From Escherichia coli (lineage in GTDB: Bacteria > Pseudomonadota > Gammaproteobacteria > Enterobacterales > Enterobacteriaceae), in assembly GCA_902500055.1 (NCBI GenBank), contig GCA_902500055.1_4131.1: a stretch of 64,000 nt of DNA. One strand, 5' to 3'. A program made the position numbers and the translations under genes. Positions 1 to 40,484 of this stretch are shown piece by piece; the stretch's first letter is position 1, and each line of letters opens with the position of its first letter. The notes below the pieces were generated by a model, which was not told the DNA's origin, did not search any database, and worked only from the letters and a program-made list of their open reading frames with translations.

Positions 1-2
1 CT

Positions 3-839
3 AATACTTTCCAACAAGGATATACTGACTGGGCTGTGTATTTCACTGGTATAGATGTTACCCAAATTAAAAAAATGTTATGTGGTTATACAGCATTTAC
101 ATTAATGAAAGACGGAACACTTTATGGAAGAGGATGGAATCGAAGTGGTTCATTAGGTTTAGGACATAAAAATTATGTTTCAGCGTGGACTGTACTTGAC
201 ACTAATGTGGATAATATATTTGGCGGTTACCTTGGCGATACATTGTTTAAGATTAAAAACGATGGAACTGTATATGGTTCAGGTTCAAATAACAGCTTTC
301 AAGTTAAAGCAACATCGGGTGATGCAACCACATTTGTTCCGTTGTTTGATGATATATCTTATGATATAAAATGCAGTTTTGTTTCTGGTGTTGGTTTTGT
401 AATGATAACATCTGATAATAAAATATATGCAACTGGAACTACTTTTGCTGGTAGTGGTGCACATAGTAAAGTTTTTGATGTTGGTTTTACTATAGGTGAT
501 ATGAGTAATATATATCATCCTGATTCGTTGGACTATTCGACTAGTGTTGTATTTTTAATTAATGCAGATACAAACAAACTAATAGCAACTGGGCATACCC
601 CATTTACGGGAAGTAGTTCAAGTTCCCTTCCATATTTTACAGCATTTCAAGAATTCAATTTTACATCGTTCAATTCGAATACACGATATAGTGGGTCTTT
701 ATACTGGAATACATTTTACGAAGGTAATAATGTATGGATGAATGGATATAATCCTAAAAATACGGGTGGAAAGAATTTCTCATTGTGTTCAATACCGTTA
801 GATACTATTATTACTAAGCAAATTGATTTACCTTTTTGA
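3..839 (+). CDS. RCC1-like beta-propeller repeat protein, 5' end cut by the window edge (array paralog 1)
   Basis: The frame is open from nt 3. It has RCC1-type glycine repeats (GWNRSGSLGLGHKN, GSGSNNSFQV) and a C-terminal ...QIDLPF like the other paralogs. Confidence 0.8.
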   Translation, partial: NTFQQGYTDWAVYFTGIDVTQIKKMLCGYTAFTLMKDGTLYGRGWNRSGSLGLGHKNYVSAWTVLDTNVDNIFGGYLGDTLFKIKNDGTVYGSGSNNSFQVKATSGDATTFVPLFDDISYDIKCSFVSGVGFVMITSDNKIYATGTTFAGSGAHSKVFDVGFTIGDMSNIYHPDSLDYSTSVVFLINADTNKLIATGHTPFTGSSSSSLPYFTAFQEFNFTSFNSNTRYSGSLYWNTFYEGNNVWMNGYNPKNTGGKNFSLCSIPLDTIITKQIDLPF

Positions 840-846
840 ATACTAT

Positions 847-911
847 GCCAGTACTCAAGTACTGGCTTTTATTTTTGATTAAATATAGTATAATGAATAA
901 AGGAGGGAAAT
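847..911 (+). promoter_or_regulatory. Intergenic cassette: terminator hairpin, conserved TATAAT box and SD
   Basis: Hairpin gccagtactcaagtactggc (847-866) plus a T-run, then TAAATATAGTATAATGAATAAAGGAGG. TATAAT lies at 889-894 and the ATG at 912. Confidence 0.75.
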
Positions 912-2105
912 ATGTTACCTTTTGCTAGAATGGTTAAATACGGGAATAAACTGCCTATTCCTGATCCAGTTGAGTTCACTGATGTTTTACAGCAACATTA
1001 TACTAATGCTATGTATCTACATAAGCCCACGAATACACTATACGGTTATGGTGGTAATAACTTGAGCCAATTAGGTCTAGGGAATCGATCGGCAGTTTCT
1101 ACTTTTACAGTACTGGCAACGCACTGTGCAGCCTTTTGGTTAGGCGTTCATGGATCATTGATGATTGACTTGGATAATAGAATATATTTCACAGGGAATA
1201 CAGTAGCATTCCCCGATTATGGAGATGCAACTCCAGTTAATGGTTATTTTAGAACATGGACTGATGTTACTGCCGCATTTAACAAAATAAATGTACACGC
1301 TAATTTAATCAAGAGTGTACATATAGGTGAAAGTACTAGAATATTACTACACGATGGAAGAGTCGTTGTTTGTGGTAAAAATGCAAATGCCGAATGTGGA
1401 ACAGGTAACCAAAATCCCATTCCAGTACTAACAGTTGTTACTGGTATGGGTGAAGTTTCTCAATTGGCGTGTTCATTACAGGGTACGCACTATCTCAAAA
1501 CAAATAAAGAAGCATGGTTTTGTGGTAAGGATAACTTTGGTGAAAGTGGTGGTGGGACTAGCTCATACGTTTTTACTAATAAATTAATACGAACCAACGT
1601 CGATTATATAAGTACTACTTATGATGTTACCTGGTGGTTTACTGCCGGTAGGGTGTACTGGAGTGGTAGAAACAATTCTGGACAAGCTGGGAATGGTACT
1701 ACTTCAACTACAAACCAATTAACTACAGTTCAGAATTCACAGGTTATAGTGAATATTAGTGATGGTTTCCTGTGTCCTAGTAATATGGGTAACTCAACAA
1801 TTGGTGCACCTATGGCTCAATACCCATCATATGTCAGGAGTGCAGGCATCAATACATATGGTCAAGAAGGGACGGGAAATACAACAATAATTACTTCGTG
1901 GGGGGCGTTTTCTTTAAGTGCGATACAGGGTGGATATGACAATGTTCTTATGGCATCCAAAGACTGGTCCAGAACAATAATTATAACTAAAGATTATAAA
2001 TTATATGCATGTGGGGGCTTTAACGGTTCAGGTAGTAAATTACCGGATGGTACTTACTTAATTAAAACATTAACATTAATGCCAACGCAGTTATGGCAAT
2101 CATAG
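912..2105 (+). CDS. RCC1-like repeat protein with MLPFARMVKYGN leader (paralog 2)
   Basis: Contains GGNNLSQLGLGNRS, GRNNSGQAGNGTTS and GINTYGQEGTGNT repeats. A strong SD lies upstream. Confidence 0.85.
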   Translation: MLPFARMVKYGNKLPIPDPVEFTDVLQQHYTNAMYLHKPTNTLYGYGGNNLSQLGLGNRSAVSTFTVLATHCAAFWLGVHGSLMIDLDNRIYFTGNTVAFPDYGDATPVNGYFRTWTDVTAAFNKINVHANLIKSVHIGESTRILLHDGRVVVCGKNANAECGTGNQNPIPVLTVVTGMGEVSQLACSLQGTHYLKTNKEAWFCGKDNFGESGGGTSSYVFTNKLIRTNVDYISTTYDVTWWFTAGRVYWSGRNNSGQAGNGTTSTTNQLTTVQNSQVIVNISDGFLCPSNMGNSTIGAPMAQYPSYVRSAGINTYGQEGTGNTTIITSWGAFSLSAIQGGYDNVLMASKDWSRTIIITKDYKLYACGGFNGSGSKLPDGTYLIKTLTLMPTQLWQS

Positions 2106-2114
2106 GAGAAAATC

Positions 2115-3224
2115 ATGTTACCTTTTGTTAGAATGTTTGATTATGGGAATATCACACCTGGTCCTAAAAATATAATTAAAGTTGGTGCTTCTACACAGGG
2201 TCAATTCTTATTGACAGATTCACATGATTTATATTACATAGGTAGAAATCAAGGTGGTGAATCTGGAAATGGAAATACCAACACAGTATCCTCATGGATA
2301 TTAGTAAGTACAGATGTTTCTAATTTTTTCGTGGGTGATCGTACACTTGTTATTATTAAAAATGATAATACGATATGGTCATCAGGTCAAACGTACTGGT
2401 TCACATCTTCCACAACTACTTCTTACAGTACTGTATTAGTTGATAGAACCAGTTGGTTCACAAATGCAATACCAGTAAGTGAAATTGCTAATATTGTATG
2501 TACATATGGTTTAATATTTGTACTTAGCACTAATTCAGTACTCTATGGTGCAGGGGCTAATGGATATCGTGGTGCTTTAGGTATTGGTTCATCATCAATT
2601 TACACATTAACTCAATGTGCTACTAATGTGCGTAAAGTAATGACGAATTCAAATGACAGTATGTATATTACATTAGATAATAAGTTATATAGTTCTGGGT
2701 GGAATGACAGGGGTCAGCATGGCACGGGGAACCGAACACAAATTAACACGTGGGGATTACGTAGTACTGGAGTAATAGATGCAGCTATTGGTGGACATAC
2801 ACTCAATTACTATAATGGTACATCATATTTCACATGTGGTACAACTCCAAACTTTCTTAGTTCAGATTCAACTACATTCAAAGCAGTTCCTGTAAGTACT
2901 TTACCTAATAATTCACCTTTGTTTATGACAAATTCAGAGGCAACAAGCACGGCTACGCAAATTATATTAACTAGTGCATATCAGAAAGGTATTGGGGGAA
3001 ACCGTGGTTTGGGATTAAACAATTCTCAAACGGGTGCTATCTATAGTGCTGCTAATTTACAATTACCTGTAGAAGTTAGTGAGATTAGTGATGTTGCTTT
3101 TAGTGACGGATTAACATCATTATTAACCAAAGACGGGAATGTATATAGTACTGGATCGTATTACGCCATTCCAGGTGCAAGTGCAGATGTTGCAGTCTTT
3201 ACTAAAATTGATTTACCAAAATAA
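2115..3224 (+). CDS. RCC1-like repeat protein with MLPFVRMFDYGN leader (paralog 3)
   Basis: Contains GWNDRGQHGTGNRT and GANGYRGALGIGSS repeats. It is joined to paralog 2 only by a GGAG SD, so the two form an operon. Confidence 0.85.
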   Translation: MLPFVRMFDYGNITPGPKNIIKVGASTQGQFLLTDSHDLYYIGRNQGGESGNGNTNTVSSWILVSTDVSNFFVGDRTLVIIKNDNTIWSSGQTYWFTSSTTTSYSTVLVDRTSWFTNAIPVSEIANIVCTYGLIFVLSTNSVLYGAGANGYRGALGIGSSSIYTLTQCATNVRKVMTNSNDSMYITLDNKLYSSGWNDRGQHGTGNRTQINTWGLRSTGVIDAAIGGHTLNYYNGTSYFTCGTTPNFLSSDSTTFKAVPVSTLPNNSPLFMTNSEATSTATQIILTSAYQKGIGGNRGLGLNNSQTGAIYSAANLQLPVEVSEISDVAFSDGLTSLLTKDGNVYSTGSYYAIPGASADVAVFTKIDLPK

Positions 3225-3230
3225 CATAAT

Positions 3231-3295
3231 GCCAGTACTCAAGTACTGGCATTTCTTTTTGGGGTAAATATAGTATAATGAATAAAGGAGGAATT
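3231..3295 (+). promoter_or_regulatory. Intergenic cassette: terminator hairpin, conserved TATAAT box and SD
   Basis: Hairpin gccagtactcaagtactggc (3231-3250), TATAAT at 3274-3279, AAAGGAGG, ATG at 3296. Confidence 0.75.
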
Positions 3296-4465
3296 ATGTT
3301 ACCTTTTGTGAGATTGTTTGATTACGGGAATATTGCACCTGATAAACCAAATATTAAAAAAATACTTGCTAACAACTATAATGTTGCTGTTTTAACAAAC
3401 AGTGGTGATTTATATGTGCGTGGTGATAATGCATATGGTATTTTGGGTTTAGGTCACAAAAATACTGTTACTACATGGACTTTTAGTACTTCTGGTGTTG
3501 AAGATTTTTGGATGGGAGCCACGTCGATAGTTGTTAAGAAAAGCAATAATGAAATATGGTACAGTGGAAGTTCAACAACTGTTGGTATGAAAGGGTCAGG
3601 AGTATCAATATGGACATCTGCTATGCCTATATTCAATACATTAACATTACCAATATTAGATATAGCCGTTAGTTATCAGACTACAAGTGTGTTACTATCA
3701 GACCAAACAATATGGAGTACTGGAGTAGGGTCGGATGGTCAGTTGGGTGATGGGACAACAATTAACCATGTTTCTGGTAGATTCGTCAAAAGTACTGTTC
3801 CTACCGCAGCAAATCAATTACCTGTTAAATTGTTTGCAAGTAATTTAATGCACGGTTATGTTACAAACCAAGGATGGTTATTTTATACAGGAAGAGTCAA
3901 TGCAGTTACAAGTTCAGGAAGTAAGTTATATAATATATATTATGGTGCTCCTACCAGCTTAAGTAATACAATTAATATAAAGTACTATGTGAATAATGGT
4001 ACTTCAATGGCAATGGCAATAGGCACTGATCCCACTGGTAAAACTATCATCGCAAATGGTGGTTCAAGAATATTTGGTGCACAAGCAGATGGGAAAGATG
4101 GTTCTCTCAAAGATTATAGAGCATTTGAGGTACAAACAGCATCACTAATGCCACCTGGTGATGTAGTAAGCATTGCTAACAATACTTCATATTATAACCA
4201 AGTTATTGCTACAACAGATGGTATATATTGTTGCGGCTACAATCAATCTACACAAGCTGGTATGTTAGGTATTGGTACATCTACTAATGCATTAGTATAT
4301 ACCAAAGCAATCGTACCTGATGGGTTTGATTATAGTAAGTCACAGATGGCAGGTAGTTATAACCGAACTTATATAACTGATGGTAATTTTGTATATAGCA
4401 CGGGAACAGATGTCACATATGGTGGCATTAGTAGTTTAGAATTTATATTAGATTCGCCAGTTTAA
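3296..4465 (+). CDS. RCC1-like repeat protein with MLPFVRLFDYGN leader (paralog 4)
   Basis: The start was moved to the MLPF ATG because the track ATG lies inside the SD box. Contains GDNAYGILGLGHKN and GSDGQLGDGTT repeats. Confidence 0.85.
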   Translation: MLPFVRLFDYGNIAPDKPNIKKILANNYNVAVLTNSGDLYVRGDNAYGILGLGHKNTVTTWTFSTSGVEDFWMGATSIVVKKSNNEIWYSGSSTTVGMKGSGVSIWTSAMPIFNTLTLPILDIAVSYQTTSVLLSDQTIWSTGVGSDGQLGDGTTINHVSGRFVKSTVPTAANQLPVKLFASNLMHGYVTNQGWLFYTGRVNAVTSSGSKLYNIYYGAPTSLSNTINIKYYVNNGTSMAMAIGTDPTGKTIIANGGSRIFGAQADGKDGSLKDYRAFEVQTASLMPPGDVVSIANNTSYYNQVIATTDGIYCCGYNQSTQAGMLGIGTSTNALVYTKAIVPDGFDYSKSQMAGSYNRTYITDGNFVYSTGTDVTYGGISSLEFILDSPV

Positions 4466-4471
4466 ATATAG

Positions 4472-4536
4472 GCCAGTACTTGATACTGGCTTTTCTTTTT
4501 TGTATTAAATATAGTATAATGAATAAAGGAGGAAAT
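4472..4536 (+). promoter_or_regulatory. Intergenic cassette: terminator hairpin, conserved TATAAT box and SD
   Basis: Hairpin gccagtacttgatactggc (4472-4490), TATAAT at 4515-4520, ATG at 4537. Confidence 0.75.
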
Positions 4537-5727
4537 ATGTTACCTTTTGCAAGAATGATGAATTATGGGAATATTGTGCCTGTACCACTACAAATTAAGA
4601 AAATAATACCAACTGATACTGAGGTTGTTGTACTTTATACCGACGGTCAACTATACGCACGAGGCAGTAATAGTTATGGGAAGTTTGGTAGAGGAAATAA
4701 TAATGCAGTAAGGTCGTGGACATTAATTAGAGAAAATGTCAAAGATTGCTGGATGACACAAGGAACTTTGTTAGTACAAGATAATGACTTAAATTATTTT
4801 TATTGTGGATATGGTAGTCATATTGGTTTAGAAACTAGTACTACATCATTTTTAAGTTATAACCAATATATTGAAAATTTGTACACACAAAGTTCAAGTA
4901 CTTCAATTAAACAGATGTATGCAGGTACTACGTGGTTTACTTTCTTAATGGATAATAATACAATATGGAGTACAGGGTGGAATAGTGCTAGACAATTCGC
5001 AGATGGTACAGGAACTACTTATCAAATATCAGATGGTTCATTTGTTAAAGCGGTAACACCAGATGTAGATATTGCACAAATACAGTCAACAAATTACTGT
5101 GCAATGTTTTTTGATACACAAAATAATTTATATATTGGTGGTAGTACATCTGGCATAAGTACTAGTACCACATGGACACCATTTAATGAATATACTTTGT
5201 ATAAGCCAAGTACCACATATACAAAAACATTACAATATACTGTTTGTTCATTTGGTGCTGTCAGTGCTTTAGTGGAGAATCCAAATACAGGAGCACGTCA
5301 GTTTCTAGTTGGTGGATTAGCTAATAATGGGGCATGGGGTAATAACACTACGAATAGTACAGCACTAGCAGTATTAGGGAATAATAGTACTACATTACCA
5401 TCAGGAACTTATTATTCAATCCATACTGGATATGCATCACAATCTAGTATACTAGTTACGAGTACAGGTGTATATGCAACTGGTTTAAATGCGAGTGGTT
5501 ATGCTGGTACATTAGGTGTTGGTTCTAATGTTACCATTGGTAAATTTACTGCATGTCCATTGCCGTCAGGAATAACATATTCTATGTATGATAAAATTAA
5601 AATATATCGCGGTTCGTATCGTACTTTCCTAACTGCTGATATGAAAAATATATATTCAACCGGAACGCATGATGATGGTGGTCCTCGTACAAATAGATAT
5701 GTACTGGATACTCCAAGACAGTTATAA
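4537..5727 (+). CDS. RCC1-like repeat protein with MLPFARMMNYGN leader (paralog 5)
   Basis: Contains GSNSYGKFGRGNNN and GLNASGYAGTLGVGSN repeats. The start was set at the MLPF ATG. Confidence 0.85.
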   Translation: MLPFARMMNYGNIVPVPLQIKKIIPTDTEVVVLYTDGQLYARGSNSYGKFGRGNNNAVRSWTLIRENVKDCWMTQGTLLVQDNDLNYFYCGYGSHIGLETSTTSFLSYNQYIENLYTQSSSTSIKQMYAGTTWFTFLMDNNTIWSTGWNSARQFADGTGTTYQISDGSFVKAVTPDVDIAQIQSTNYCAMFFDTQNNLYIGGSTSGISTSTTWTPFNEYTLYKPSTTYTKTLQYTVCSFGAVSALVENPNTGARQFLVGGLANNGAWGNNTTNSTALAVLGNNSTTLPSGTYYSIHTGYASQSSILVTSTGVYATGLNASGYAGTLGVGSNVTIGKFTACPLPSGITYSMYDKIKIYRGSYRTFLTADMKNIYSTGTHDDGGPRTNRYVLDTPRQL

Positions 5728-5733
5728 TATAAT

Positions 5734-5799
5734 GCCAGTACAGAGTACTGGCTTTTCTTTTTTGTATTAAATATATTATAATGAATAAAGGAGGGAATT
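5734..5799 (+). promoter_or_regulatory. Intergenic cassette: terminator hairpin, conserved TATAAT box and SD
   Basis: Hairpin gccagtacagagtactggc (5734-5752), TATAAT at 5777-5782, ATG at 5800. Confidence 0.75.
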
Positions 5800-6537
5800 A
5801 TGTTACCTTTTGGAAGAATGGTTAAGTACGGGAATAAAATTGAATATAAGCCACATGGTGAACAATTAATCACGACAATAGGAACAACACAATTTACAGT
5901 TCCTGCTGGCGTTACCGAAATATCAGTATGTGTTATTTCGCCGGGTGGTCAACGTGGTGCTGGTGGCGGCTTATCGTGGCGTAATAATATTCCGGTTACT
6001 AGTGGTGAGTACTTAAGTGTTTCTCTTACACATCCCAACACTACTACACCAGTTGAAAACGGTTTATATCGTGGAACTGAAAAACTATGTGTTAGCTTCA
6101 CTGGTGAATATAGGGTTGGTGGACTAGGTGGGAAAGCTGCTAACGCTATTAATGATGGTGGTGGTAATGGGGGCAACGCTGGTGTAAGTGGTGGTGCAGT
6201 CATTGGTGGTGGTGCTGGTGGCTACACTGGTAAAGGTGGTAACGGAGATGCAATCACTGGTGAAAATGGTGCTGGCGGCGGCGGTGGTGGTGGTGCATTC
6301 TATAATACCTCGTTCATTGGTACGGGTGGTGGTACTGGTATCATTGTTCAAGGTGCTAATGGCATTGGCGGTAGATACGATGGTTCATATAATGGTGGTG
6401 CTGGTAGTGGTGGTGCTGGTAAGATGTATGGTGGTGGTGGTAGTATATGGGATAATTTTTCTTATACGGCTGCTGGTGGTGGTGCTGTGCGAATAATATG
6501 GGGACGTGGGAGATATTATCCTAACAATTCAGTCTAA
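5800..6537 (+). CDS. Glycine-rich domain protein with the same MLPFGRMVKYGN leader (array member 6, not RCC1)
   Basis: Begins FTVPAGVTEISVCVISPGG, continues with long GGxGG tracts and ends GGGAVRIIWG. This is the layout of glycine-rich-domain proteins. Confidence 0.8.
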   Translation: MLPFGRMVKYGNKIEYKPHGEQLITTIGTTQFTVPAGVTEISVCVISPGGQRGAGGGLSWRNNIPVTSGEYLSVSLTHPNTTTPVENGLYRGTEKLCVSFTGEYRVGGLGGKAANAINDGGGNGGNAGVSGGAVIGGGAGGYTGKGGNGDAITGENGAGGGGGGGAFYNTSFIGTGGGTGIIVQGANGIGGRYDGSYNGGAGSGGAGKMYGGGGSIWDNFSYTAAGGGAVRIIWGRGRYYPNNSV

Positions 6538-6544
6538 AATATAG

Positions 6545-6608
6545 GCCAGTACAGAGTACTGGCTTTTCTTTTTGTATTAAATATAGTATAATGAATAAAG
6601 GAGGAAAT
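6545..6608 (+). promoter_or_regulatory. Intergenic cassette: terminator hairpin, conserved TATAAT box and SD
   Basis: Hairpin gccagtacagagtactggc (6545-6563), TATAAT at 6587-6592, ATG at 6609. Confidence 0.75.
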
Positions 6609-7718
6609 ATGTTACCTTTTGGGAGAATGTTAAAGTACGGGAATATAGCACCTGAAGATCCAAAGATAAAGAAAGTACTGTGCGGTCTTGATAATTTGTA
6701 CGTCCTCTATGGCGATGGCTCACTTTATGGTTGTGGGGTTAATACTTATTTTCAGTTAAACGTTGAAAATACAGCAACAAGAAATACTTGGATATTAATT
6801 TCAGAAGGTGTTACTGATGCATGGGCTGGGGCGTACAATATTCTTTATCTCAAGGGTGAAGAATTCATAATGCATGGAGTTACCACACAATTAGGCACAG
6901 GAAATACTACGATTCCGTTGGGTGGTTTGAATGTTACTTCTTCATTTCCACATATATCTAATATTAAAATGATATCAATTGGTGTAGATACAATGCACTA
7001 CGTTGATGCTAGTGGTTCGATTGTTTATGGTAGAGGCATGAATGGTAACTATTCACTCGGTGGTGGGTATTCCACGGCTCAGAGTACTTTTGTTTCAGTT
7101 ATTAATACCGGAGCTAATACAGTCCTTGATATATTGGGTACACAGAATAACACATTAATATTAACATCAAATGGTGAACTTCTCGGTTGTGGGAGTAGTG
7201 GGTATGGTTCACTTGGCGTAAGTCCAGGACAGTATACTACACTAGTAAGCAGGTTAACCAGTGTTAAACTGTTTGGTGGTAACAGTACTGGTACTCTTGC
7301 TTATTCAGCCAGCAATATATACAACGCAGGTTGGCAGTATATTGGTCAACTTGGTAACGGTATTACAACGAACACACAAGTATATCCATTTGCATTTAAC
7401 TCCACTACTATTGATAGTAAGATACATAAAATATCAAAATCAAGTGCGACTTCATATGTTAATATGTACGCAACAACCGAAGGAAAGATATACAGTACTG
7501 GTGAATTTGGTAGAAATGGTTCTGGTGGTGGTTTGAGTAGATTCACCAATACACTAACTTTAGATAATTACAACCCAGAAAAATCAGCATTATACACATG
7601 TGCACATTTTAGTATAGTATTTGATGGTAATAATCAAATTTATGCTTGTGGTTCTTTTTTGTATGTGCCAGGTCCTATTACCACGAACTCATGGTCTGCA
7701 ATTACAATGCCGAAATAA
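6609..7718 (+). CDS. RCC1-like repeat protein with MLPFGRMLKYGN leader (paralog 7)
   Basis: Contains GVNTYFQLN, GMNGNYSLGGG and GSSGYGSLG repeats. The start was set at the MLPF ATG. Confidence 0.85.
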   Translation: MLPFGRMLKYGNIAPEDPKIKKVLCGLDNLYVLYGDGSLYGCGVNTYFQLNVENTATRNTWILISEGVTDAWAGAYNILYLKGEEFIMHGVTTQLGTGNTTIPLGGLNVTSSFPHISNIKMISIGVDTMHYVDASGSIVYGRGMNGNYSLGGGYSTAQSTFVSVINTGANTVLDILGTQNNTLILTSNGELLGCGSSGYGSLGVSPGQYTTLVSRLTSVKLFGGNSTGTLAYSASNIYNAGWQYIGQLGNGITTNTQVYPFAFNSTTIDSKIHKISKSSATSYVNMYATTEGKIYSTGEFGRNGSGGGLSRFTNTLTLDNYNPEKSALYTCAHFSIVFDGNNQIYACGSFLYVPGPITTNSWSAITMPK

Positions 7719-7732
7719 TACTATAAAACTAT

Positions 7733-7796
7733 GCCAGTACTTTGTACTGGCTTTCTTATTTGTATTAAATATAGTATAATGAATAAAGGAGGAATT
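7733..7796 (+). promoter_or_regulatory. Intergenic cassette: terminator hairpin, conserved TATAAT box and SD
   Basis: Hairpin gccagtactttgtactggc (7733-7751), TATAAT at 7775-7780, ATG at 7797. Confidence 0.75.
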
Positions 7797-8966
7797 ATGT
7801 TACCTTTTGGAAGAATGTTAAAGTACGGAAATATTAAACCAACTCTTCCCGAAATAAAGAAATTGGATGGTAGTCAATTACATGTCGGATTACTTTATAG
7901 TACAGGGAATATGTATATGCGTGGTTCTGGATCGAACTACAAATTAGGAACAGGGAATGATAGTGATGTATTAGGTGGTTGGGTACATGTACCCTATGAA
8001 GTTGATGATTTTTGGGCGTGTGTATCCGGTACATTAATAAAGACGGTTGATAATAAGTTATATTGTGCCGGACTATACATGGGTGGATATTTTGGGGCTA
8101 GTGGTTCATATGTTAACTGGACTGAAGTAACTTCATTATTTGTAGGTATTGACGTGTCGCAAATAAAGAATATAGAATTTACGTCAGCAGGTACGTCAGG
8201 TAGTACACTAATATTGATGTTAGATGGTCGTTTATATGGGTTCGGTATGAACAGTAGATCTGAGTTAGGTGTTAATAACAAAGTTGTATCTCCCATTCTT
8301 ATAGATACTGGGGTAAGTGAAATAGGAGCACATAAGTTAGGCGGTTCATCGTTCCATTATATAAAAGGCGGTAAGTACTACAGATGTGGAACATCGGTTG
8401 GTAGTAATATTGGAAGTTCTTCTTTAACTACTTTTACGGTATTGAGTATTCCTGATAACGTTATATCTATGCAAATTTTATATGACAACGTACAGTTATT
8501 ATGTTTAGGAAGTTCTGGATATAGTATCTATATGGCTGGTTCTAATGATTATGGTGGAAGAGGTGTTGGTGGTTCTACTGTTTACACTACATTCAGGAAA
8601 ATAGATCTTACAGGATTTGGTGTTGTTCCCAGTGAAATACTATTTGAAAATGCCGGAAATGGTTATGTTAATATATCAACTGATAGTACTGGAGTATATA
8701 CATGTGGTGGTGGAGCGGGTGTTAACGGTTTAGGTAGACCAACTAATGTAATACCAAGTTCACAGTTGGGGGTAGTTCAGTTCAGTACTGGAGTAGAACA
8801 ATCAAATATAAGTCGTGTGTATTCACAGAGTTCGAGTTCTGTTATATATTGTATAGTCAATAATGAATTGTACTGGGCTGGGAGTAATTCATATTTTACT
8901 GATCAAACCACAAATACTGGTACACAATTTTCATTTATTAAGATGAAGAATATGCCTTCTGCTTAG
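7797..8966 (+). CDS. RCC1-like repeat protein with MLPFGRMLKYGN leader (paralog 8)
   Basis: Contains GSGSNYKLGTGN, GMNSRSELGVNN and GSNDYGGRGVGG repeats. Confidence 0.85.
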   Translation: MLPFGRMLKYGNIKPTLPEIKKLDGSQLHVGLLYSTGNMYMRGSGSNYKLGTGNDSDVLGGWVHVPYEVDDFWACVSGTLIKTVDNKLYCAGLYMGGYFGASGSYVNWTEVTSLFVGIDVSQIKNIEFTSAGTSGSTLILMLDGRLYGFGMNSRSELGVNNKVVSPILIDTGVSEIGAHKLGGSSFHYIKGGKYYRCGTSVGSNIGSSSLTTFTVLSIPDNVISMQILYDNVQLLCLGSSGYSIYMAGSNDYGGRGVGGSTVYTTFRKIDLTGFGVVPSEILFENAGNGYVNISTDSTGVYTCGGGAGVNGLGRPTNVIPSSQLGVVQFSTGVEQSNISRVYSQSSSSVIYCIVNNELYWAGSNSYFTDQTTNTGTQFSFIKMKNMPSA

Positions 8967-8973
8967 ATTTTAT

Positions 8974-9037
8974 GCCAGTACTTAACACTGGCTTTTCTTT
9001 TTGATTAAATATAGTATAATGAATAAAGGAGGATTTT
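8974..9037 (+). promoter_or_regulatory. Intergenic cassette: terminator hairpin, conserved TATAAT box and SD
   Basis: Imperfect hairpin gccagtacttaacactggc (8974-8992), TATAAT at 9015-9020, ATG at 9038. Confidence 0.7.
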
Positions 9038-10243
9038 ATGTTACCTTTTCCAAGGATGTTAAAATACGCAAATAAAATGAAAGTTCCTGAAGTGAAAGAA
9101 ATCTTTATGTACAATGGTTATAGTGCGTCAGTTATTCCAGCAACAGCACTCTTACTATTATATAAAAATGGAGACTTAATGGGTATAGGTGGAACTAGTT
9201 CACAAAACTATGGATTCGGAAATGGTGTACCTAATGCGAAAGTAAAAGAGTGGGCTTTAATATACCAAAATGTAAAACGTTTTAGAACAGCCCAAGGTTC
9301 TTTTAATTTAATCCAAACCGAAGATAATAAATTTTATTACAGTGGCGTAGGTAGAGCTATTGGTACAGGATTAAGTACTGTCAGTACTTATACTGATTGT
9401 ACTTCATATTTTACATCAGTATTCAATGCAACACAATTGTCGCAAATTAAGGACATTCAAATTGTAGGGGAGGGTATTTTTGTTTTACTTCAAAATGGTA
9501 CGCTATATGGAATGGGGGCCAATACACAGGGATATTTTGGTAATAACACAACCACAAGATTATCAACATTTACTTCAATTAATACGAATGTGGATAGTGT
9601 AAAAACAGGTTCAAGTGCAGTGATTGTGCAGAAAATTGATAAAACACTTTGGGTCACTGGTCAAAACACATGGGGTTCACTTGGTATAAGTAATGGTGAA
9701 ACTAACATTAGAGTATGGACACAAATGGGTGCATTAGCCAACAATACTGTTATACATTATGAACTTGGTGGGAGTGCATCATGGGTTGTATCTAAACACA
9801 ACACGAATAATACATATACAGTTCGTGCAAGTGGGATTCAATCGGAAGGTAACTTGGGTAATAGTTCAGCCGCTTCATCAGGGACAGTATTATCTACAAT
9901 CTCCACTCTACCAATATCAGATAATATGGAAATGAAATCAAATTCATTAACATATGGTGGGCTTACGGTTAAAACTAACAATTCACTTTATATGTGTGGT
10001 ATAAACACATATGGTAGGCTCGGTCGCGGTAATACCACATCAAGTACTACATTTGTAGTTCCAGTTGATGCACCTAAAGTTGGCAGCATCGAGTTATTCT
10101 GTCCAAGTGAATGTACAAATGTGTATATGGATAATCAAGGGGATGTGTATTTGAGTGGCTATATCCCACAAGCAGCAGGGACAACAGTTTCTGATTACTA
10201 CACTAAATTCCAATTATATCAAATACCCAGTCGTGGTATATAA
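9038..10243 (+). CDS. RCC1-like repeat protein with MLPFPRMLKYAN leader (paralog 9)
   Basis: Contains GANTQGYFGNN, GQNTWGSLGISNG and GINTYGRLGRGNTT repeats. Confidence 0.85.
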   Translation: MLPFPRMLKYANKMKVPEVKEIFMYNGYSASVIPATALLLLYKNGDLMGIGGTSSQNYGFGNGVPNAKVKEWALIYQNVKRFRTAQGSFNLIQTEDNKFYYSGVGRAIGTGLSTVSTYTDCTSYFTSVFNATQLSQIKDIQIVGEGIFVLLQNGTLYGMGANTQGYFGNNTTTRLSTFTSINTNVDSVKTGSSAVIVQKIDKTLWVTGQNTWGSLGISNGETNIRVWTQMGALANNTVIHYELGGSASWVVSKHNTNNTYTVRASGIQSEGNLGNSSAASSGTVLSTISTLPISDNMEMKSNSLTYGGLTVKTNNSLYMCGINTYGRLGRGNTTSSTTFVVPVDAPKVGSIELFCPSECTNVYMDNQGDVYLSGYIPQAAGTTVSDYYTKFQLYQIPSRGI

Positions 10244-10250
10244 AAAAAAT

Positions 10251-10315
10251 GCCAGTATTTTGTACTGGCATTTTTTTGTCCTAAATATAATAACGATTTA
10301 CATTTGGAGGATACA
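10251..10315 (+). promoter_or_regulatory. Divergent copy of the intergenic cassette
   Basis: Hairpin gccagtattttgtactggc (10251-10269) flanked by an A-run and a T-run. TATAAT at 10286-10291, GGAGGA SD, ATG at 10316. Confidence 0.6.
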
Positions 10316-11468
10316 ATGCTACCCTTTGGAAGAATTATCACATCATCAAAAAAGAACATACAACCTTCTGTAACAAAAATAGCTTCATCTGATACAACAG
10401 TTTTTGCCCTTATGTCAGATGGTACGTTGTACAGTAGAGGCTCTCAAGAGTTTGGGCAAATGGGTATAGGTAATATTATAACACAAACCAAATGGGTTTT
10501 GTGCAATACAAACGTAGAAGATATATGGGTGCGGGTATGAGTCAACCTTAATAAAAAAGAAAGATAATACGATGTGGTACGCTGGAAATGGTGCATCATT
10601 CGGATTATCAACTGATAAGTCAACAACATGGGCTTCTGCAAAGATAGTGTTTGATAGAATAACCGCCCTAGGCAAAACAATAAAACAAATTGCAGTTAGT
10701 GCAGGTGCATTAAGCGTATTATGCACAGACAACACTATATGGAATACGGGCTATGGTAGTTATGGTCAACTGGGAAATGGTAGAAGTACCGATTCACTTT
10801 CATCATTTGTACAAGGAACAGTACCTACTGGAGTAACACCATCCAAAATACTGGCAAATTTTCTTATGCAAGGATTTATTGGAACCGATGGGAGATTGTA
10901 TTATACTGGTGCAATATCAGGCGTAGGTACAACCGACATGACGTTATATTCAAAGTACACGTTATGTTCTCAAATAACTAATACCTATACGGTGAAAGAT
11001 TATACAACAAACTCAAGTTACTTCGCTTTTGCTATAGCAAGTAATAATAGTAGTAATAAATTATTTGCATATCATGGTGGTGGACAATACTTTGGTCAGT
11101 TAGCAAATGGTTCTACATCACAAACATATATTTCGTTAAGACAAACAACACAAGCACCAGGTGATATAATAAGAAGCAGTGTGGGTTATTCATATTTTTC
11201 TAATCATATTATAACTTCATTAGGTGTTTACGCAACTGGTTATAACACAGGCGATAACGCAGGTCAATTAGGTATAGGTACACAAACAGATGTCTCAGCC
11301 TATACCAAATGTGTACTACCAATAGAGATGAATATGAATAACGTATATGTTACAGCAACTTTATACAGAACTTACTTAACCGATGGTATACAAATTTACA
11401 GTACTGGACAATATGTTACAGACGGTGGAGTTGCCAGTACTGTATTTGTCAAAGATTCACCATTTTAG
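10316..11468 (+). pseudogene. RCC1-like paralog 10, reading frame broken by a +1 shift between 10518 and 10540
   Basis: The MLPFGRIITS... frame stops at 10538-10540. The +1 frame is open from 10518 and reads GCGYESTLIKKKDNTMWYAGNG, which continues the paralog alignment to 11468. Confidence 0.6.
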
Positions 11469-12111
11469 GAATATTGTACAAAGTGTATGCGGTTATTTTA
11501 GAACTCTTTTTAAATTCATCGTAAAGATAATTCAAAATTTTGGAGCATTCAATATACTTTTCAATATCTTTATGGATTAATGAGTACTGAAACATTAAAT
11601 CAGATGATATAGTGTAGGTACTACCTTTTAAACTGTTTAAAATATCACAGATTTCAGGGTTTACTGGTACTTCGTCAAAATTATCATCTAAAACATTTAT
11701 TTCAAAATCAAAGCTATCTTTGTTTTTGATTAATTTGATAATAGAATCACCATAAACATTATATTGTTTTAATGGATTTACTACAATGTTAAAAAGATTG
11801 GATGTATTACAATCAATATCCATAAAGTATGTATTATCATTGTACTTAATATTGAAACATCCGTACTCAATAAAATCACCAGGAGTTATTGATGAGTTTC
11901 TTCTCGTTTCAACATAAGAAGCTTTAATTTTGTTTTTATGTAAAAGAGTAATAAATTTCTTAGACTGTTTAGCACCAGCTAAGTAAGTATTATAACTTGG
12001 TCTTTTAAAGATTATAGGACTAGACTTCTCGCCAGAGAAATATTTTTTTATAAATTTACGTTGTTTAACAAAATAGTTTTTATAAAACAAACCTAATTTT
12101 GATTTCATCAT
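11449..12111 (-). CDS. Hypothetical protein, distant member of the F-Q-x-S motif family
   Basis: Intact 220-aa ORF, convergent with the array. Carries the C-terminal motif SDLMFQYSLI. Confidence 0.7.
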   Translation of the reverse strand: MMKSKLGLFYKNYFVKQRKFIKKYFSGEKSSPIIFKRPSYNTYLAGAKQSKKFITLLHKNKIKASYVETRRNSSITPGDFIEYGCFNIKYNDNTYFMDIDCNTSNLFNIVVNPLKQYNVYGDSIIKLIKNKDSFDFEINVLDDNFDEVPVNPEICDILNSLKGSTYTISSDLMFQYSLIHKDIEKYIECSKILNYLYDEFKKSSKITAYTLYNIPKMVNL

Positions 12112-15462: not shown

Positions 15463-15494
15463 ATAATAGCAAAAGGGCCGACCTAAGTCAACCC
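15463..15494 (-). promoter_or_regulatory. Composite hairpin element (terminator-like stem with embedded -35 TTGACT) plus TATTAT -10
   Basis: The minus sense reads GGGTTGAC-TTAG-GTCGGCCC followed by TTTTGC. TTGACT (15486-15491), N17, TATTAT (15463-15468). Confidence 0.6.
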
Positions 15495-23023: not shown

Positions 23024-23407
23024 TTACTTCTTGAACTTATGTTTTTCACTTTCGATTGCATTCACGATTTCATCATGAATTTTACGAAGATTGTGAGTTT
23101 TCTTTAGAGAATCATGCAATGCACGGAATGCAGAGTGTACAGTTGCTTTAAAGTGCTCTTTAGGAGTTACTTTAAGTTTCTCGATAATATCACGTACATA
23201 GATTGGGTGATCCTCAAACACACGATTAAGCTCATGGCCTAGTGATTCTAGGCTAAATGCTTTTTCACGGGATGGACGATCATGTGCAAGACTTTGGTCT
23301 GGTTTTAGAAGACCTAGTGAATCTAGATACTTGTGCTTATGTGCATTGTCTAGACCAGAAATATCAACATCATGTGATGGATCTTTCTTATTCCATTTAC
23401 CAACCAT
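23024..23407 (-). CDS. Hypothetical protein (short paralog of 20420..21679)
   Basis: The segment KYLDSLGLLKPDQ...IIEKLKVTPKEHFKA parallels RYVNSLGLLNATQ...IVKELQSVPKEELKV. Confidence 0.7.
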   Translation of the reverse strand: MVGKWNKKDPSHDVDISGLDNAHKHKYLDSLGLLKPDQSLAHDRPSREKAFSLESLGHELNRVFEDHPIYVRDIIEKLKVTPKEHFKATVHSAFRALHDSLKKTHNLRKIHDEIVNAIESEKHKFKK

Positions 23408-34721: not shown

Positions 34722-35687
34722 TTAGAAATCTTCGTATTCGTACCCTTTTGCAAGTACTAACTTCTTAAGCTTTTGCATAGCTTCACTGTACTTTCGGTGT
34801 ATTGATGAACGGGATTTAACATATTTTCCATTATCATCAACAAAACCATTATCAGCAATCTCACGAAGCGTTTCAGGTTCATATTCACCTAGACCATGAA
34901 CACGCTGGATAATCTCACGTTCTTTAGTACTCAATTCGTTAGTCAGTTCATTGATAGCATAACGTAAAGGTGCACGGATACTATCAACATTGAGGTTAAA
35001 ATCAGAAGCAGGTGAATGAATAATGTCACCTAATGTACCATCTGTAACACCGTCTAATGGTGCATCCAGCGAAGTGTATTCGCTTTGAAATAACAAACAA
35101 TTATTAACATGCTGAATCTCAATCCCAGTACCCTCTGAGATTATTTCAGGAGTTGGGCGAACACCATGTTTACGCATATATTCCTGACAGAATCTTTTTA
35201 CTTTGATCTTATGAACACTCATATAACGTGGGAAGTGTACCATATAGTTAGCGTCAGAACTTTCGTTATAGACTGTCATGTAAATACTAGAAGAAGCATA
35301 GGTAATGAACTTAACATTCTTATTAAGATCAAAGGTTTTTAGTGCTCTCATGAACCCCTCAACACCATATGAAATCTTATCTTCAAATGGGATATAACAA
35401 GTACATTTACTTGCTACATCAATAATCAGTCCATAATTGTAACGAACTAACAGTTCAGTGTTTTTCTTTACATTGATACCAGCTTGAATATCACGAATTA
35501 GATCTTCATTGGAAACATTTGGTGGTCGCTTAAGTGTAATATTATATTTGAAACTGCTTTGTACTTTACCTTCATTTTCATCTTTATCTTCAACGAAATC
35601 TAAGGCTTCTAGTGTGTTGACTTCTTCATTAGCAAAACATTCATCCAGAACTTCTTCGGCAATTGTATTTAAATCAAGCTTTTTCAC
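34722..35687 (-). CDS. Sigma-70 family RNA polymerase sigma factor
   Basis: Region 2-like LLVRYNYGLIIDVASKC...EGFMRALKTFDLNKNVKFITYASSSIYMTV. Region 4-like LSTKEREIIQRVHGLG...TLREIA...SRSSIHRKYSEAMQKLKK. GTG start after a GGAGAT SD. Confidence 0.85.
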   Translation of the reverse strand: MKKLDLNTIAEEVLDECFANEEVNTLEALDFVEDKDENEGKVQSSFKYNITLKRPPNVSNEDLIRDIQAGINVKKNTELLVRYNYGLIIDVASKCTCYIPFEDKISYGVEGFMRALKTFDLNKNVKFITYASSSIYMTVYNESSDANYMVHFPRYMSVHKIKVKRFCQEYMRKHGVRPTPEIISEGTGIEIQHVNNCLLFQSEYTSLDAPLDGVTDGTLGDIIHSPASDFNLNVDSIRAPLRYAINELTNELSTKEREIIQRVHGLGEYEPETLREIADNGFVDDNGKYVKSRSSIHRKYSEAMQKLKKLVLAKGYEYEDF

Positions 35688-40433: not shown

Positions 40434-40462
40434 TTGGATATGCATAATAAATACGTTATAAT
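40434..40462 (+). promoter_or_regulatory. Sigma-70 promoter TTGGAT-N17-TATAAT for the lone + strand gene
   Basis: TTGGATatgcataataaatacgtTATAAT, then a GGAGGG SD and the ATG at 40485. Confidence 0.65.
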
Positions 40463-40484
40463 AATTATACCAATGGAGGGATAA

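What the first reader, a model, noticed from the sequence alone, without database searches (positions are those of the whole stretch)
847..10315. Eight copies of a roughly 65-bp intergenic cassette with a -10-only promoter-like box, possibly read by the phage sigma factor
The consensus after the hairpin and T-run is (g)tatTAAATATAGTATAATGAATAAAGGAGG-N4/5-ATG. TATAAT is perfect, but the position 17 nt upstream is just the terminator T-run, so there is no TTGACA. This contrasts with the minus-strand block, where I read about 20 promoters with clear TTGACA/TTGACT -35 boxes. Two promoter classes on two strands, together with a phage-encoded sigma-70 family gene at 34722..35687, suggests temporal control: host sigma for the minus block and phage sigma for the array. 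The conserved AAATATAG upstream of the -10 would be the candidate specificity element. This is inference only.
Basis: partly seen in the sequence, partly recalled or inferred. Interest (0 to 1): 0.6.

Follow-up and report, generated by a model that had tools for sequence, protein, structure and literature searches.

The report
Terminator plus late-promoter cassettes between phage genes
Eight copies of a 65-bp "stop, restart, translate" cassette separate tandem virion-protein genes in a giant E. coli phage; the restart signal looks like a T4-type late promoter, and the cassettes are also the joints where related phages have swapped these genes.

Summary
There are seven near-identical cassettes and one degenerate one. 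Each holds a hairpin, a T-run, TAAATA-N3-TATAAT and AAGGAGG, followed by ATG. They sit between RCC1-like paralog genes of an Asteriusvirus-type jumbo coliphage.

The temporal-class idea is supported. The minus-strand block carries about 35 canonical TTGACA-type promoters. The array has none, and its genes are orthologs of proteins found in phAPEC6 virions.

The mechanism needs correcting. Genome-wide in phAPEC6 the conserved late signal is (a)TAAATA, present upstream of 28 of 39 non-array virion genes with no fixed TATAAT. In 79 of 79 cassettes from ten phages TAAATA is exact. TATAAT varies in 12, usually losing the critical last T.

This matches a T4-type late promoter. The likely reader is the clade's gp55-like late sigma, which lies outside the window. 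The RpoD-like sigma at 34722-35687 is a poorer candidate: it is poorly conserved, and its -10-reading residues change while the box does not. TATAAT at a fixed 3-nt spacing is still selected within the arrays, so a dual promoter is not excluded.

Homology breakpoints between relatives fall inside the cassettes (18 of 28, P about 1e-12). They therefore behave like PeSL-type shuffling joints carrying a late promoter. No transcription start data exist.

The parts
847..911 (+). Cassette 1. Hairpin 847-866, T-run 867-877, TAAATA 880-885, TATAAT 889-894, SD AAGGAGG 900-906; ATG at 912.
   Evidence: (-13.2 kcal/mol).
3231..3295 (+). Cassette 2. Hairpin 3231-3250 (extended stem 3228-3253), TAAATA 3265-3270 preceded by GGGG, TATAAT 3274-3279; ATG at 3296.
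   Evidence: (-16.1 kcal/mol).
4472..4536 (+). Cassette 3. Hairpin 4472-4490, TAAATA 4506-4511, TATAAT 4515-4520; ATG at 4537. A second TAAATATAG lies at 4463-4471, just before the hairpin.
   Evidence: (-11.5 kcal/mol).
5734..5799 (+). Cassette 4. Hairpin 5734-5752, TAAATA 5768-5773, spacer TAT, TATAAT 5777-5782; ATG at 5800.
   Evidence: -12.4 kcal/mol; 1 mismatch.
6545..6608 (+). Cassette 5. Hairpin 6545-6563, TAAATA 6578-6583, TATAAT 6587-6592; ATG at 6609.
   Evidence: (-13.9 kcal/mol).
7733..7796 (+). Cassette 6. Hairpin 7733-7751, TAAATA 7766-7771, TATAAT 7775-7780; ATG at 7797.
   Evidence: (-12.4 kcal/mol).
8974..9037 (+). Cassette 7. Weaker hairpin 8974-8992, TAAATA 9006-9011, TATAAT 9015-9020; ATG at 9038.
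   Evidence: (-8.6 kcal/mol).
10251..10315 (+). Cassette 8, diverged. Hairpin 10251-10269 (extended A/T stem), TAAATA 10282-10287 retained, TATAAT replaced by TAACGA, SD GGAGG; ATG at 10316. It precedes a split gene.
   Evidence: (-18.7 kcal/mol). The same sequence is present in phAPEC6 and EC22.5-2.
36..11468 (+). Tandem array of paralogous virion-protein genes, each starting MLPFxRMxxYGN. RCC1-like genes: 36-839 (5' end cut by the window), 912-2105, 2115-3224, 3296-4465, 4537-5727, 6609-7718, 7797-8966, 9038-10243. The gene at 5800-6537 is glycine-rich and not RCC1-like. The last gene is split into 10316-10540 and 10572-11468.
   Evidence: Pfam RCC1-like domain, RCC1 and RCC1_2, and PHROG 4219. 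N-termini. Orthology to the phAPEC6 virion proteins gp003, gp009 and gp010 (PMC7247149).
2105..2115 (+). Cassette-less junction of operon type between two array genes (TAGGAGAAAATCATG).
40448..40484 (+). An independent copy of the same two-part box, TAAATA-CGT-TATAAT, with a 31-nt gap to the ATG at 40485. The gene is the ortholog of phAPEC6 gp077, a virion structural protein (PHROG 10468). It is a plus-strand gene inside the minus-strand block.
   Evidence: PMC7247149 Table 1.
34722..35687 (-). RpoD-like sigma-70-family gene inside the early block.

Best explanation
Each cassette is a self-contained expression joint with three jobs.
1. A GC-cored hairpin plus T-run ends the upstream transcript.
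2. A T4-type late promoter restarts transcription 13-16 nt after the hairpin. Its core is TAAATA, equivalent to positions -11 to -6 of the T4 box TATAAATA, here with AT, GG or CC in place of the first TA. There is no -35, and the segment downstream is AT-rich.
3. A strong Shine-Dalgarno sequence, AAGGAGG, drives translation.

Every RCC1-like virion-protein paralog is therefore its own late transcription unit. With T4 geometry the start would be near 890-892, inside the TATAAT, giving a leader of about 21 nt.

The most likely reader is host core RNA polymerase carrying the phage's gp55-like late sigma. That sigma is encoded outside this window; in phAPEC6 it is gp237c. Its gene sits behind a third promoter type, GACAAA...TGnTATAAT. 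This suggests a cascade: host sigma-70 drives the early genes, which include the RpoD-like sigma; middle genes follow, including the gp55-like sigma; the late genes come last.

Because the roughly 65-bp cassette and the first 40-60 nt of each gene are kept nearly identical, they also serve as homology joints. At these joints whole gene units are inserted, deleted and reordered between related phages, as described for PeSL cassettes of T4-like phages.

Shown: the anatomy, the conservation pattern, the genome-wide motif statistics, the breakpoint positions, and the presence and conservation of both sigmas in relatives.
Inferred: the start site, the timing, which sigma acts, and that recombination at the joints is biologically used.
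For: Anatomy and terminators.

Late identity of the genes: window genes 3296-4465, 6609-7718 and 7797-8966 are 91-97% identical in DNA to phAPEC6 gp003, gp009 and gp010. Those proteins were detected in virions (PMC7247149 Table 1).

Genome-wide late box:
- De novo EM on the upstream regions of 39 non-array virion or structural genes of phAPEC6 returns aTAAATA.
- 28 of the 39 have an exact TAAATA 29-58 nt before the ATG. There is an A 6 nt after the box in 77% of them, and no conserved TATAAT.
- In sense orientation TAAATA lies upstream of 74 of 694 called genes, against 14 for the antisense control. It precedes only 2 of 272 genes in the early block at 250-350 kb.

Cassette census over ten phages of four host genera: 79 of 79 cassettes have an exact TAAATA. 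The downstream hexamer is TATAAT in 67. The rest are TATAAA, TATAAC, TAACGA, TATATT, TTACAA and CAACGT.

Match to T4: an 8-bp box at the -10 position, no -35, an AT-rich downstream segment, either polarity, and variation tolerated at -13 and -12 (PMC2988020). A late ATAAATA motif was already predicted in the relatives CBB and GAP32 (PMC5259590).

Sigmas:
- gp237c matches PHROG 234 'late sigma transcription factor' at 8e-18.
- It hits gp55 of T4-like cyanophages and lies next to gp47 and gp46 homologs.
- It is 73-100% identical across every phage that shares the box.
- The RpoD-like sigma is 36-100% identical across the same phages. Its region-2.4 equivalents read SSIYMTVYN, TTVYMTIYN and TAIRQTMYN, against WWIRQAITR in RpoD.

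Recombination joints: 18 of 28 internal homology breakpoints against six relatives fall in cassette zones that make up 9% of the sequence (binomial P about 8e-13). The rest lie at the adjacent stop codon or at the 2104-2166 junction. Gene order is permuted in CMSTMSU and Turkey3.
Against: - No transcription start or timing data exist for this phage group in the searched literature.
- The array boxes are atypical late boxes. The base before TAAATA is T in 66 copies, G in 10 and C in 3. In non-array sites it is A in 27, C in 10, G in 4 and T in 2.
- The gap from the box to the ATG is 25-26 nt, just below the non-array range of 27-69.
- An exact TATAAT 3 nt downstream is kept even where the flanking spacer and leader have diverged (CMSTMSU, Turkey3, Munch). 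Only 2 of 43 non-array sites have it. TATAAT is therefore under its own selection and may be a real sigma-70-type -10.
- The gp55-like protein has no Pfam, NCBIfam or PDB sequence match. Its assignment rests on PHROGs, tblastn and gene neighbourhood.
- CBB's authors found no homologs of gp33 or gp45, so T4-style activation by the sliding clamp is unproven.
- The window itself does not contain the gp55-like gene.
- Breakpoint endpoints are not independent, so the P value is indicative only.
- Virion detection by mass spectrometry does not prove late timing.
Confidence: 0.6

Rival explanations
1. TATAAT is the -10 of a -35-less promoter, and the upstream AAATATAG acts as an extended specificity element. 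It is read by the phage RpoD-like sigma encoded at 34722-35687.
For: - TATAAT is exact in 67 of 79 cassettes, at a fixed 3-nt distance from TAAATA, even where the neighbouring bases have diverged.
- The sigma gene lies in the early block behind sigma-70 promoters, so it could drive a later class.
- Its region 2.4 has diverged from RpoD, so it may have an unusual -10 specificity.
Against: - The sigma keeps a region-4.2-like helix, which implies a two-part promoter.
- Its -10-reading residues differ (Y-M against R-Q) between Escherichia phages and Salmonella or Erwinia phages that carry the same box.
- It is only 36-60% identical among phages with identical cassettes.
- Cassette variants lose the essential last T of the hexamer (TATAAC, TATAAA, TTACAA) but never change TAAATA.
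- Late genes genome-wide have TAAATA without TATAAT.
- The predicted start, at about 901, would fall on the Shine-Dalgarno sequence.
Confidence: 0.12
2. A dual, overlapping promoter. The TAAATA late box and a sigma-70-type TATAAT -10 are both functional. The array would then have a low basal or earlier expression through host sigma-70 (or the RpoD-like sigma) plus a late burst through the gp55-like sigma.
For: - Both elements are conserved at fixed spacing in arrays from Escherichia and Salmonella phages.
- The same 15-bp composite also precedes two unrelated virion genes, gp077 and gp274c.
- The first cassette of the array in relatives reads TAAATA-TGA-TATAAT. That creates a TGn extended -10.
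Against: - The internal cassettes have TAG, TAT or TAA rather than TGn, and no -35, so sigma-70 activity should be weak.
- A sigma-70 start would leave a leader of only about 11 nt.
- The TATAAT may simply be an optimal AT-rich melting and initiation segment. T4 late promoters also favour AT-rich sequence there (PMC2988020).
Confidence: 0.15
3. The host sigma-70 alone reads the TATAAT as a weak -10-only promoter, helped by the A/T-rich upstream tract. There is no phage-sigma control, and the array is expressed throughout infection.
For: The hexamer is a perfect TATAAT and the upstream region is A/T-rich.
Against: - There is no -35 and no TGn.
- The genes encode virion proteins.
- The TAAATA conservation and its genome-wide link to virion genes would be left unexplained.
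- Variants that lack the last T persist upstream of intact genes, for example G17_00076.
Confidence: 0.08
4. There is no promoter. The array is one long transcript, the hairpins are attenuators or RNA-stabilising and processing sites, and the sequence is kept identical only by gene conversion between repeats.
For: - The breakpoints show that recombination does occur in the cassettes.
- Some array junctions work without any cassette (2105-2115; 35 of 114 junctions).
Against: - Gene conversion cannot explain the same box upstream of non-paralogous virion genes.
- It also cannot explain the box surviving in phages whose proteins are only about 30% identical.
- The hairpin loops and T-runs vary while the box does not.
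Confidence: 0.05

Closest known systems
T4-type late promoters (TATAAATA, read by gp55 with gp33 and the gp45 sliding clamp)
   Same: - A single short A/T box at the -10 position and no -35.
- An AT-rich segment downstream of the box.
- Placement upstream of virion genes on either strand.
- A gp55-family sigma in the clade, lying next to gp47 and gp46 homologs.
- The TAAATA core is identical to T4's.
   Different: - The first two positions are AT, GG or CC rather than TA.
- A fixed TATAAT follows 3 nt later in the arrays.
- No gp33 or gp45 homolog has been reported for the clade (PMC5259590).
- No experimental start sites exist.
- The gp55-like protein is longer (279 aa) and matches cyanophage gp55 only distantly.
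Predicted late motif ATAAATA of the Rak2-like jumbo phages CBB and GAP32 (PMC5259590)
   Same: Same clade and same core motif, with the same association with structural genes. The same set of two sigmas is present, one RpoD-like and one gp55-like.
   Different: That work did not describe the terminator-promoter-RBS cassette, the TAAATA-N3-TATAAT subclass of the RCC1 arrays, or any role in recombination. I did not find CBB's TGAAACG-type middle class in phAPEC6. The third class there looks like GACAAA...TGnTATAAT.
PeSL cassettes (promoter-early stem-loops) of T4-like phages (PMC2839356, PMC4122927)
   Same: - A composite intergenic element of under 100 bp holding a stem-loop terminator, a promoter, a Shine-Dalgarno sequence and the ATG.
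- Many conserved copies flanking variable genes.
- Insertion, deletion and replacement breakpoints between close relatives map inside the element.
- Each gene travels with its own promoter and terminator.
   Different: - PeSLs carry strong sigma-70 early promoters and flank small orphan ORFs. These cassettes carry a late-type box and flank 1.1-1.3 kb paralogous virion-protein genes.
- The homology here extends into a conserved N-terminal coding segment.
- Mini-circles were not tested.
- True PeSL-like elements, with TTGACT inside the terminator stem, do occur in this window's early block.
Extended -10 (TGnTATAAT) sigma-70 promoters
   Same: Recognition is confined to the -10 region, with no -35 and a perfect TATAAT.
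   Different: The TG at -15 and -14 is absent from all eight window cassettes, which have TAG, TAT or TAA. It is present only in the first cassette of the array in relatives.

Membership tests
T4-type late promoter | Core of the 8-bp box (TAAATA, T4 positions -11 to -6) present at a fixed place upstream of the gene | tested here: met
   Exact in 8 of 8 window cassettes and in 79 of 79 cassettes from ten phages. The gap to the ATG is 25-28 nt in the window.
T4-type late promoter | TA at positions -13 and -12 (the full TATAAATA) | tested here: not met
   The window has AT in 6 copies, GG in 1 and CC in 1. T4 itself tolerates A at -13 at nine sites and has one TA-to-AT site. Aeh1 uses a/gC there (PMC2988020). 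phAPEC6 late sites show no preference at -13 and 73% A at -12.
T4-type late promoter | No conserved -35 element | tested here: met
   The -35 position is the terminator T-run.
T4-type late promoter | AT-rich segment immediately downstream of the box | tested here: met
   TAGTATAATGAATAAA has 14 of 16 bases A or T.
T4-type late promoter | Lies upstream of late (virion) genes | tested here: met
   Met by orthology to phAPEC6 virion proteins detected by mass spectrometry. The timing itself was not measured.
T4-type late promoter | The phage encodes a gp55-family sigma | tested here: met
   Present in all relatives examined, at 73-100% identity. It matches PHROG 234 at 8e-18 and hits cyanophage gp55. 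It is not inside this 64-kb window. It has no Pfam, NCBIfam or PDB sequence hit.
T4-type late promoter | Transcription starts about 6 nt after the box and depends on gp55, with gp33 and the sliding clamp | not testable with these tools
   This needs 5'-end mapping and in vitro transcription. CBB's authors found no homologs of gp33 or gp45.
Sigma-70 extended -10 promoter | TG at -15 and -14 upstream of TATAAT | tested here: not met
   The three bases before TATAAT are TAG in 6 copies and TAT in 1. Copy 8 has TAA and no TATAAT.
Canonical sigma-70 promoter | A TTGACA-like -35 placed 16-18 nt upstream of the -10 | tested here: not met
   At most 2 of 6 positions match there. The scan reports no such promoter at the cassettes.
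Intrinsic (Rho-independent) terminator | A stable GC-containing hairpin followed directly by a U-run | tested here: met
   All 8 cassettes: -8.6 to -18.7 kcal/mol, followed by TTTTCTTTTT-type tails. The orthologous hairpins are annotated as terminators in G17.
PeSL-type mobile regulatory cassette | A composite of stem-loop terminator, promoter and SD in one short intergenic element, repeated many times | tested here: met
PeSL-type mobile regulatory cassette | The promoter is a strong sigma-70-like early promoter | tested here: not met
   The box is of late type with no -35. This is therefore a variant of the PeSL idea, not a PeSL.
PeSL-type mobile regulatory cassette | Insertion, deletion and replacement breakpoints between related genomes map within the cassettes | tested here: met
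   18 of 28 internal breakpoints lie in zones covering 9% of the sequence. Gene order is permuted in two relatives.
PeSL-type mobile regulatory cassette | Excised mini-circles form by recombination between cassettes | not testable with these tools
   This needs inverse PCR or long-read sequencing of infected cells.

The most novel reading that the evidence does not exclude
The 15-bp composite TAAATA-N3-TATAAT may be a distinct promoter subclass served by two sigmas: the gp55-like late sigma, plus either host sigma-70 or the unusual RpoD-like phage sigma that lacks the tryptophan pair. On this reading, the cassettes together with the conserved N-terminal coding segment form an integron-like exchange system. 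That system reshuffles virion-surface beta-propeller proteins between jumbo phages. It might be helped by a protein that recognises the CAGTACTG palindrome, which forms the hairpin stems and is about 50-fold over-represented genome-wide.
Probability: 0.15. Interest if true: 0.65.

Novelty: new variant of a known kind. Interest (0 to 1): 0.4.

Why it matters
The analysis gives a concrete, testable transcription map for a group of 350-kb coliphages that has no transcriptome. It points to three promoter classes and two phage sigmas, and it supplies natural promoter variants that can serve as ready-made mutants.

It also extends the idea that regulatory cassettes act as recombination joints. That idea was described for early orphan genes of T4-like phages; here it applies to late virion-protein genes of jumbo phages. 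This would explain why every isolate carries a different set and order of RCC1-like paralogs. Those proteins are candidates for the unexplained hairy decorations of these virions.

For annotation, it warns against reading any perfect TATAAT as a sigma-70 -10 in a phage that uses T4-type late boxes.

Tried and rejected
- Rfam scan of 1-12000 at a permissive threshold: only two sub-threshold chance hits, so no known RNA family.
- Search for CBB's TGAAACG-type promoter class in the window and in phAPEC6: no enrichment and only one upstream match.
- De novo EM on upstream regions lacking both known boxes: it recovered only a conserved -10-plus-leader repeat of the early block at 325-345 kb, not a middle class. 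Reading upstream regions by eye suggested GACAAA...TGnTATAAT. I did not test this statistically.
- Pfam, NCBIfam and PDB sequence searches with the gp55-like protein: no hits.
- Literature searches for transcriptomes of Asteriusvirus or Rak2-like phages: none found. PA5oct RNA-seq reports only sigma-70-type motifs.
- A literature search for CAGTACTG was swamped by 'macrophage' papers.
- A mobile-element (MITE-like) reading was rejected. The cassettes occur only at gene junctions of the array and always in one orientation.
- I first counted the diverged copy 8 as strong evidence that TAAATA outlasts TATAAT. I then downgraded it, because the gene behind it is split and possibly decaying.
- My crude gene caller sometimes picks internal start codons. 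Genome-wide counts from it are approximate.

Full report
**What the window is.** The first 11.5 kb match, in a mosaic pattern, the RCC1-like gene arrays of E. coli jumbo phages of the genus Asteriusvirus: PBECO4, 121Q, phAPEC6, G17 and about 30 others. The genes all begin MLPFxRMxxYGN. They carry RCC1-like beta-propeller repeats (Pfam RCC1-like domain, RCC1 and RCC1_2; PHROG 4219). One of them, 5800-6537, is glycine-rich instead but has the same N-terminus.

**Checking the observation.**
Seven are near-identical, starting at 847, 3231, 4472, 5734, 6545, 7733 and 8974. One is diverged, starting at 10251. Each runs up to the ATG of the next gene.
- The 27-nt promoter-to-SD core occurs seven times with at most one mismatch, against zero expected.
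- The cassettes are 85-95% identical to each other. The proteins they precede are 23-31% identical.
- Each hairpin folds at -8.6 to -18.7 kcal/mol, far better than shuffles, and a T-run follows it. The orthologous hairpins are annotated as terminators in phage G17.
- There is no -35. The position 16-18 nt upstream of TATAAT is the T-run.
- One array junction, 2105-2115, has no cassette.
- The claimed contrast holds. The pattern TTGAC[AT]-N15-19-TAnnnT occurs 35 times on the minus strand and once on the plus strand, against about 7 per strand in shuffles. Most copies have A-rich upstream tracts.
- The ORF at 34722-35687 (minus strand) is a sigma-70-family protein. Pfam region 3 scores above its cut-off, while regions 2 and 4 fall just below theirs. 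It aligns to RpoD residues 373-578.

**What the downstream genes are.** The phAPEC6 virion proteome lists eight of its RCC1-like proteins: gp003, 005, 006, 007, 009, 010, 549 and 551. It also lists gp077 (PMC7247149 Table 1). Window genes 3296-4465, 6609-7718 and 7797-8966 are 91-97% identical in DNA to gp003, gp009 and gp010. The window gene at 40485-41639 is the gp077 ortholog (PHROG 10468, virion structural protein). These are virion components, so late expression is the default expectation. That is an inference, because timing has not been measured.

**Which part of the box matters.** I fetched the whole phAPEC6 genome and looked upstream of 39 virion or structural genes outside the array.
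- De novo EM returned aTAAATA.
- 28 of the 39 have an exact TAAATA 29-58 nt before the ATG. A precedes the box in 73%, and an A lies 6 nt after it in 77%. Nothing else is conserved, including any TATAAT.
- Genome-wide, sense TAAATA lies in the -70 to -12 region of 74 of 694 crudely called genes, against 14 for the antisense control. It is almost absent (2 of 272) from the block of small early genes at 250-350 kb.
- The 15-bp composite TAAATA-N3-TATAAT occurs 15 times in phAPEC6. Thirteen copies are in the array. The other two lie upstream of the unrelated virion genes gp077 and gp274c.

In the window the same box precedes 40485 (plus strand) and several minus-strand genes, such as the one starting at 23407, the ortholog of virion protein gp037c. 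The late class is therefore not confined to one strand.

**Comparative census.** RCC1-like arrays also exist in Salmonella phage Munch, Erwinia phage Hallingskeid and Yersinia phage fHe-Yen9-04. Their proteins are about 25-38% identical to the window's. I examined 114 MLP- or MIP-type gene starts across ten phages.
- 35 are cassette-less junctions of operon type.
- 79 have a cassette, and all 79 have an exact TAAATA.
- The hexamer 3 nt downstream is TATAAT in 67. It is TATAAA in 3, TAACGA in 3, TATAAC in 2, TATATT in 2, TTACAA in 1 and CAACGT in 1.

Most variants lose the last T, which is the base that sigma-70-family proteins need most (established knowledge of -10 recognition). TAAATA is never altered. 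However, TATAAT survives in cassettes whose spacer and leader have diverged (CMSTMSU, Turkey3, Munch), so it is itself under selection. The array boxes also differ from generic late boxes in two other ways. They have T or G rather than A or C before TAAATA, and a slightly shorter distance to the ATG, 25-26 nt against 27-69. They form a subclass.

**Geometry.** If TATAAT (889-894) were the -10, the start would be at about 901. That is the second A of AAGGAGG, which would leave an 11-nt leader beginning on the SD. With T4 geometry, where the box ends at -6, the start is at about 890-892 and the leader is about 21 nt. That fits the leaders implied for the other late genes. This is inference.

**Which sigma.** T4 late promoters are an 8-bp TATAAATA at the -10 position. 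They have no -35, an AT-rich downstream segment and either polarity. Variation at -13 and -12 is tolerated in T4 and in relatives such as Aeh1. They are read by gp55 (PMC2988020).
- phAPEC6 gp237c is annotated as a late sigma. It matches PHROG 234 at 8e-18 and hits gp55 of T4-like cyanophages. It lies next to gp47 and gp46 homologs. It is 73-100% identical in every phage that shares the box.
- The RpoD-like sigma of the window is 57-60% identical in Turkey3, CMSTMSU and fEgEco12, and 36-37% identical in Munch and Hallingskeid. All of these have the same TAAATA-N3-TATAAT or TATATT box.
- Its equivalents of RpoD's WWIRQAITR read SSIYMTVYN in the window, TTVYMTIYN in Turkey3, and TAIRQTMYN or VSIRQTMYN in Munch and Hallingskeid. 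The residues that read the -10 change while the box does not. It also keeps a region-4.2-like helix, which suggests a promoter with an upstream element.
- In phAPEC6 the gp55-like gene and several replication genes are preceded by GACAAA...TGnTAtAAT sequences. This fits an early, middle, late cascade like the one proposed in silico for phage CBB (PMC5259590).

The gp55-like sigma is therefore the better candidate, but only by inference.

**A second role for the cassettes.** I compared the window array with those of phAPEC6, G17, A4, CMSTMSU, Turkey3 and EC22.5-2.
- 18 of 28 internal ends of segments at least 90% identical fall in the cassette zones. A zone runs from 5 nt before the hairpin to 60 nt past the ATG, and together the zones make up 9% of the sequence (binomial P about 8e-13; the endpoints are not independent).
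- The remaining ends sit at the stop codon beside a hairpin or at the cassette-less junction 2104-2166.
- Whole genes are present or absent between cassettes. Their order is permuted in CMSTMSU and Turkey3.

This is the pattern described for PeSL cassettes of T4-like phages (PMC2839356, PMC4122927). The difference is that those carry early sigma-70 promoters and flank small orphan ORFs.

**Verdict.** The cassette is a terminator, late promoter and RBS joint whose key box is TAAATA. It is most likely read by a gp55-like sigma encoded elsewhere in the genome. The conserved TATAAT is either an optimised initiation segment or a second, sigma-70-type element. The cassettes double as recombination joints. 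This is a new variant of known kinds (T4-type late promoter, PeSL-type cassette) and of moderate interest. All statements about transcription remain predictions.

Noticed in passing
whole window, e.g. 850, 858, 3234, 3242, 12128, 12138; phAPEC6 genome (L003-L010); L011-L014, L016: The palindrome AGTACT is about 10-fold over-represented: 193 observed against about 19 expected in the window, and 918 against about 97 in phAPEC6. CAGTACTG is about 50-fold over-represented (39 against 0.8). It is by far the most over-represented palindromic hexamer, while several GC-rich palindromes are absent altogether. It occurs in coding sequence in all three frames and in non-coding DNA. It builds the cassette hairpin stems and sits just before the -10 of many early promoters. 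The excess, 9-20-fold, is shared by the Salmonella, Erwinia and Yersinia relatives. I have no explanation for it.
   Followed up: partly
window, minus strand: -35 hexamers starting at 15491, 20407, 22252, 23014, 26255: The early block contains compact terminator-promoter fusions of the form GGTTGACTTCGGTCAGCC-TTTTTTG-TTATAAT. The -35 hexamer TTGACT lies inside the 5' arm of a terminator hairpin. These resemble the PeSL elements of T4-like phages.
   Followed up: no
window 10316-10540 and 10572-11468: The last array gene, behind the degenerate cassette 8, is split into two frames with a stop at 10540. phAPEC6 lacks about 720 nt of it. The terminal paralog and its promoter may be decaying together, or there may be a sequencing frameshift near an A-run.
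   Followed up: partly
window 34722-35687 (minus strand): The RpoD-like sigma lacks the conserved tryptophan pair of region 2.3 (RpoD WW becomes SS). It has Y-M where RpoD has the R-Q that reads position -12. Relatives in Salmonella and Erwinia phages keep R-Q. There is also an insertion before the region-4.2 helix. Its promoter specificity is unknown.
   Followed up: partly
window 912, 2115, 3296, 4537, 5800, 6609, 7797, 9038, 10316 (first 12 codons of each gene): All array genes share the N-terminal peptide MLPFxRMxxYGN, including the glycine-rich protein at 5800-6537 that is not RCC1-like. Distant phages have MIPF instead. This may be a common virion-attachment or assembly module. It also extends the recombination homology into the coding sequence.
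   Followed up: no
L002 6840-6876 (G17); phAPEC6 348926; L016 about 3390; L011 about 300: The first cassette of the array in relatives has no hairpin and reads GGGG-TAAATA-TGA-TATAAT. It faces the divergent early block. The TGA creates a TGn extended -10, so the first gene of the array may also be read by sigma-70. This copy lies outside the window.
   Followed up: no
phAPEC6 155958-156088, and upstream of gp204c, gp219c, gp160c and gp246c (L005, L006): A possible third (middle) promoter type, (G/A)GACAAA-N12-14-TGnTA(T/C)AAT, precedes the gp55-like sigma gene and several replication genes. I saw it by eye only.
   Followed up: no
window 4463-4471 and 4506-4514; also 6537-6544: In cassette 3 the sequence TAAATATAG occurs twice, once overlapping the stop codon just before the hairpin and once as the promoter box after it. 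Cassette 5 has a similar AAAATATAG before its hairpin. These may be footprints of past crossovers within cassettes.
   Followed up: no
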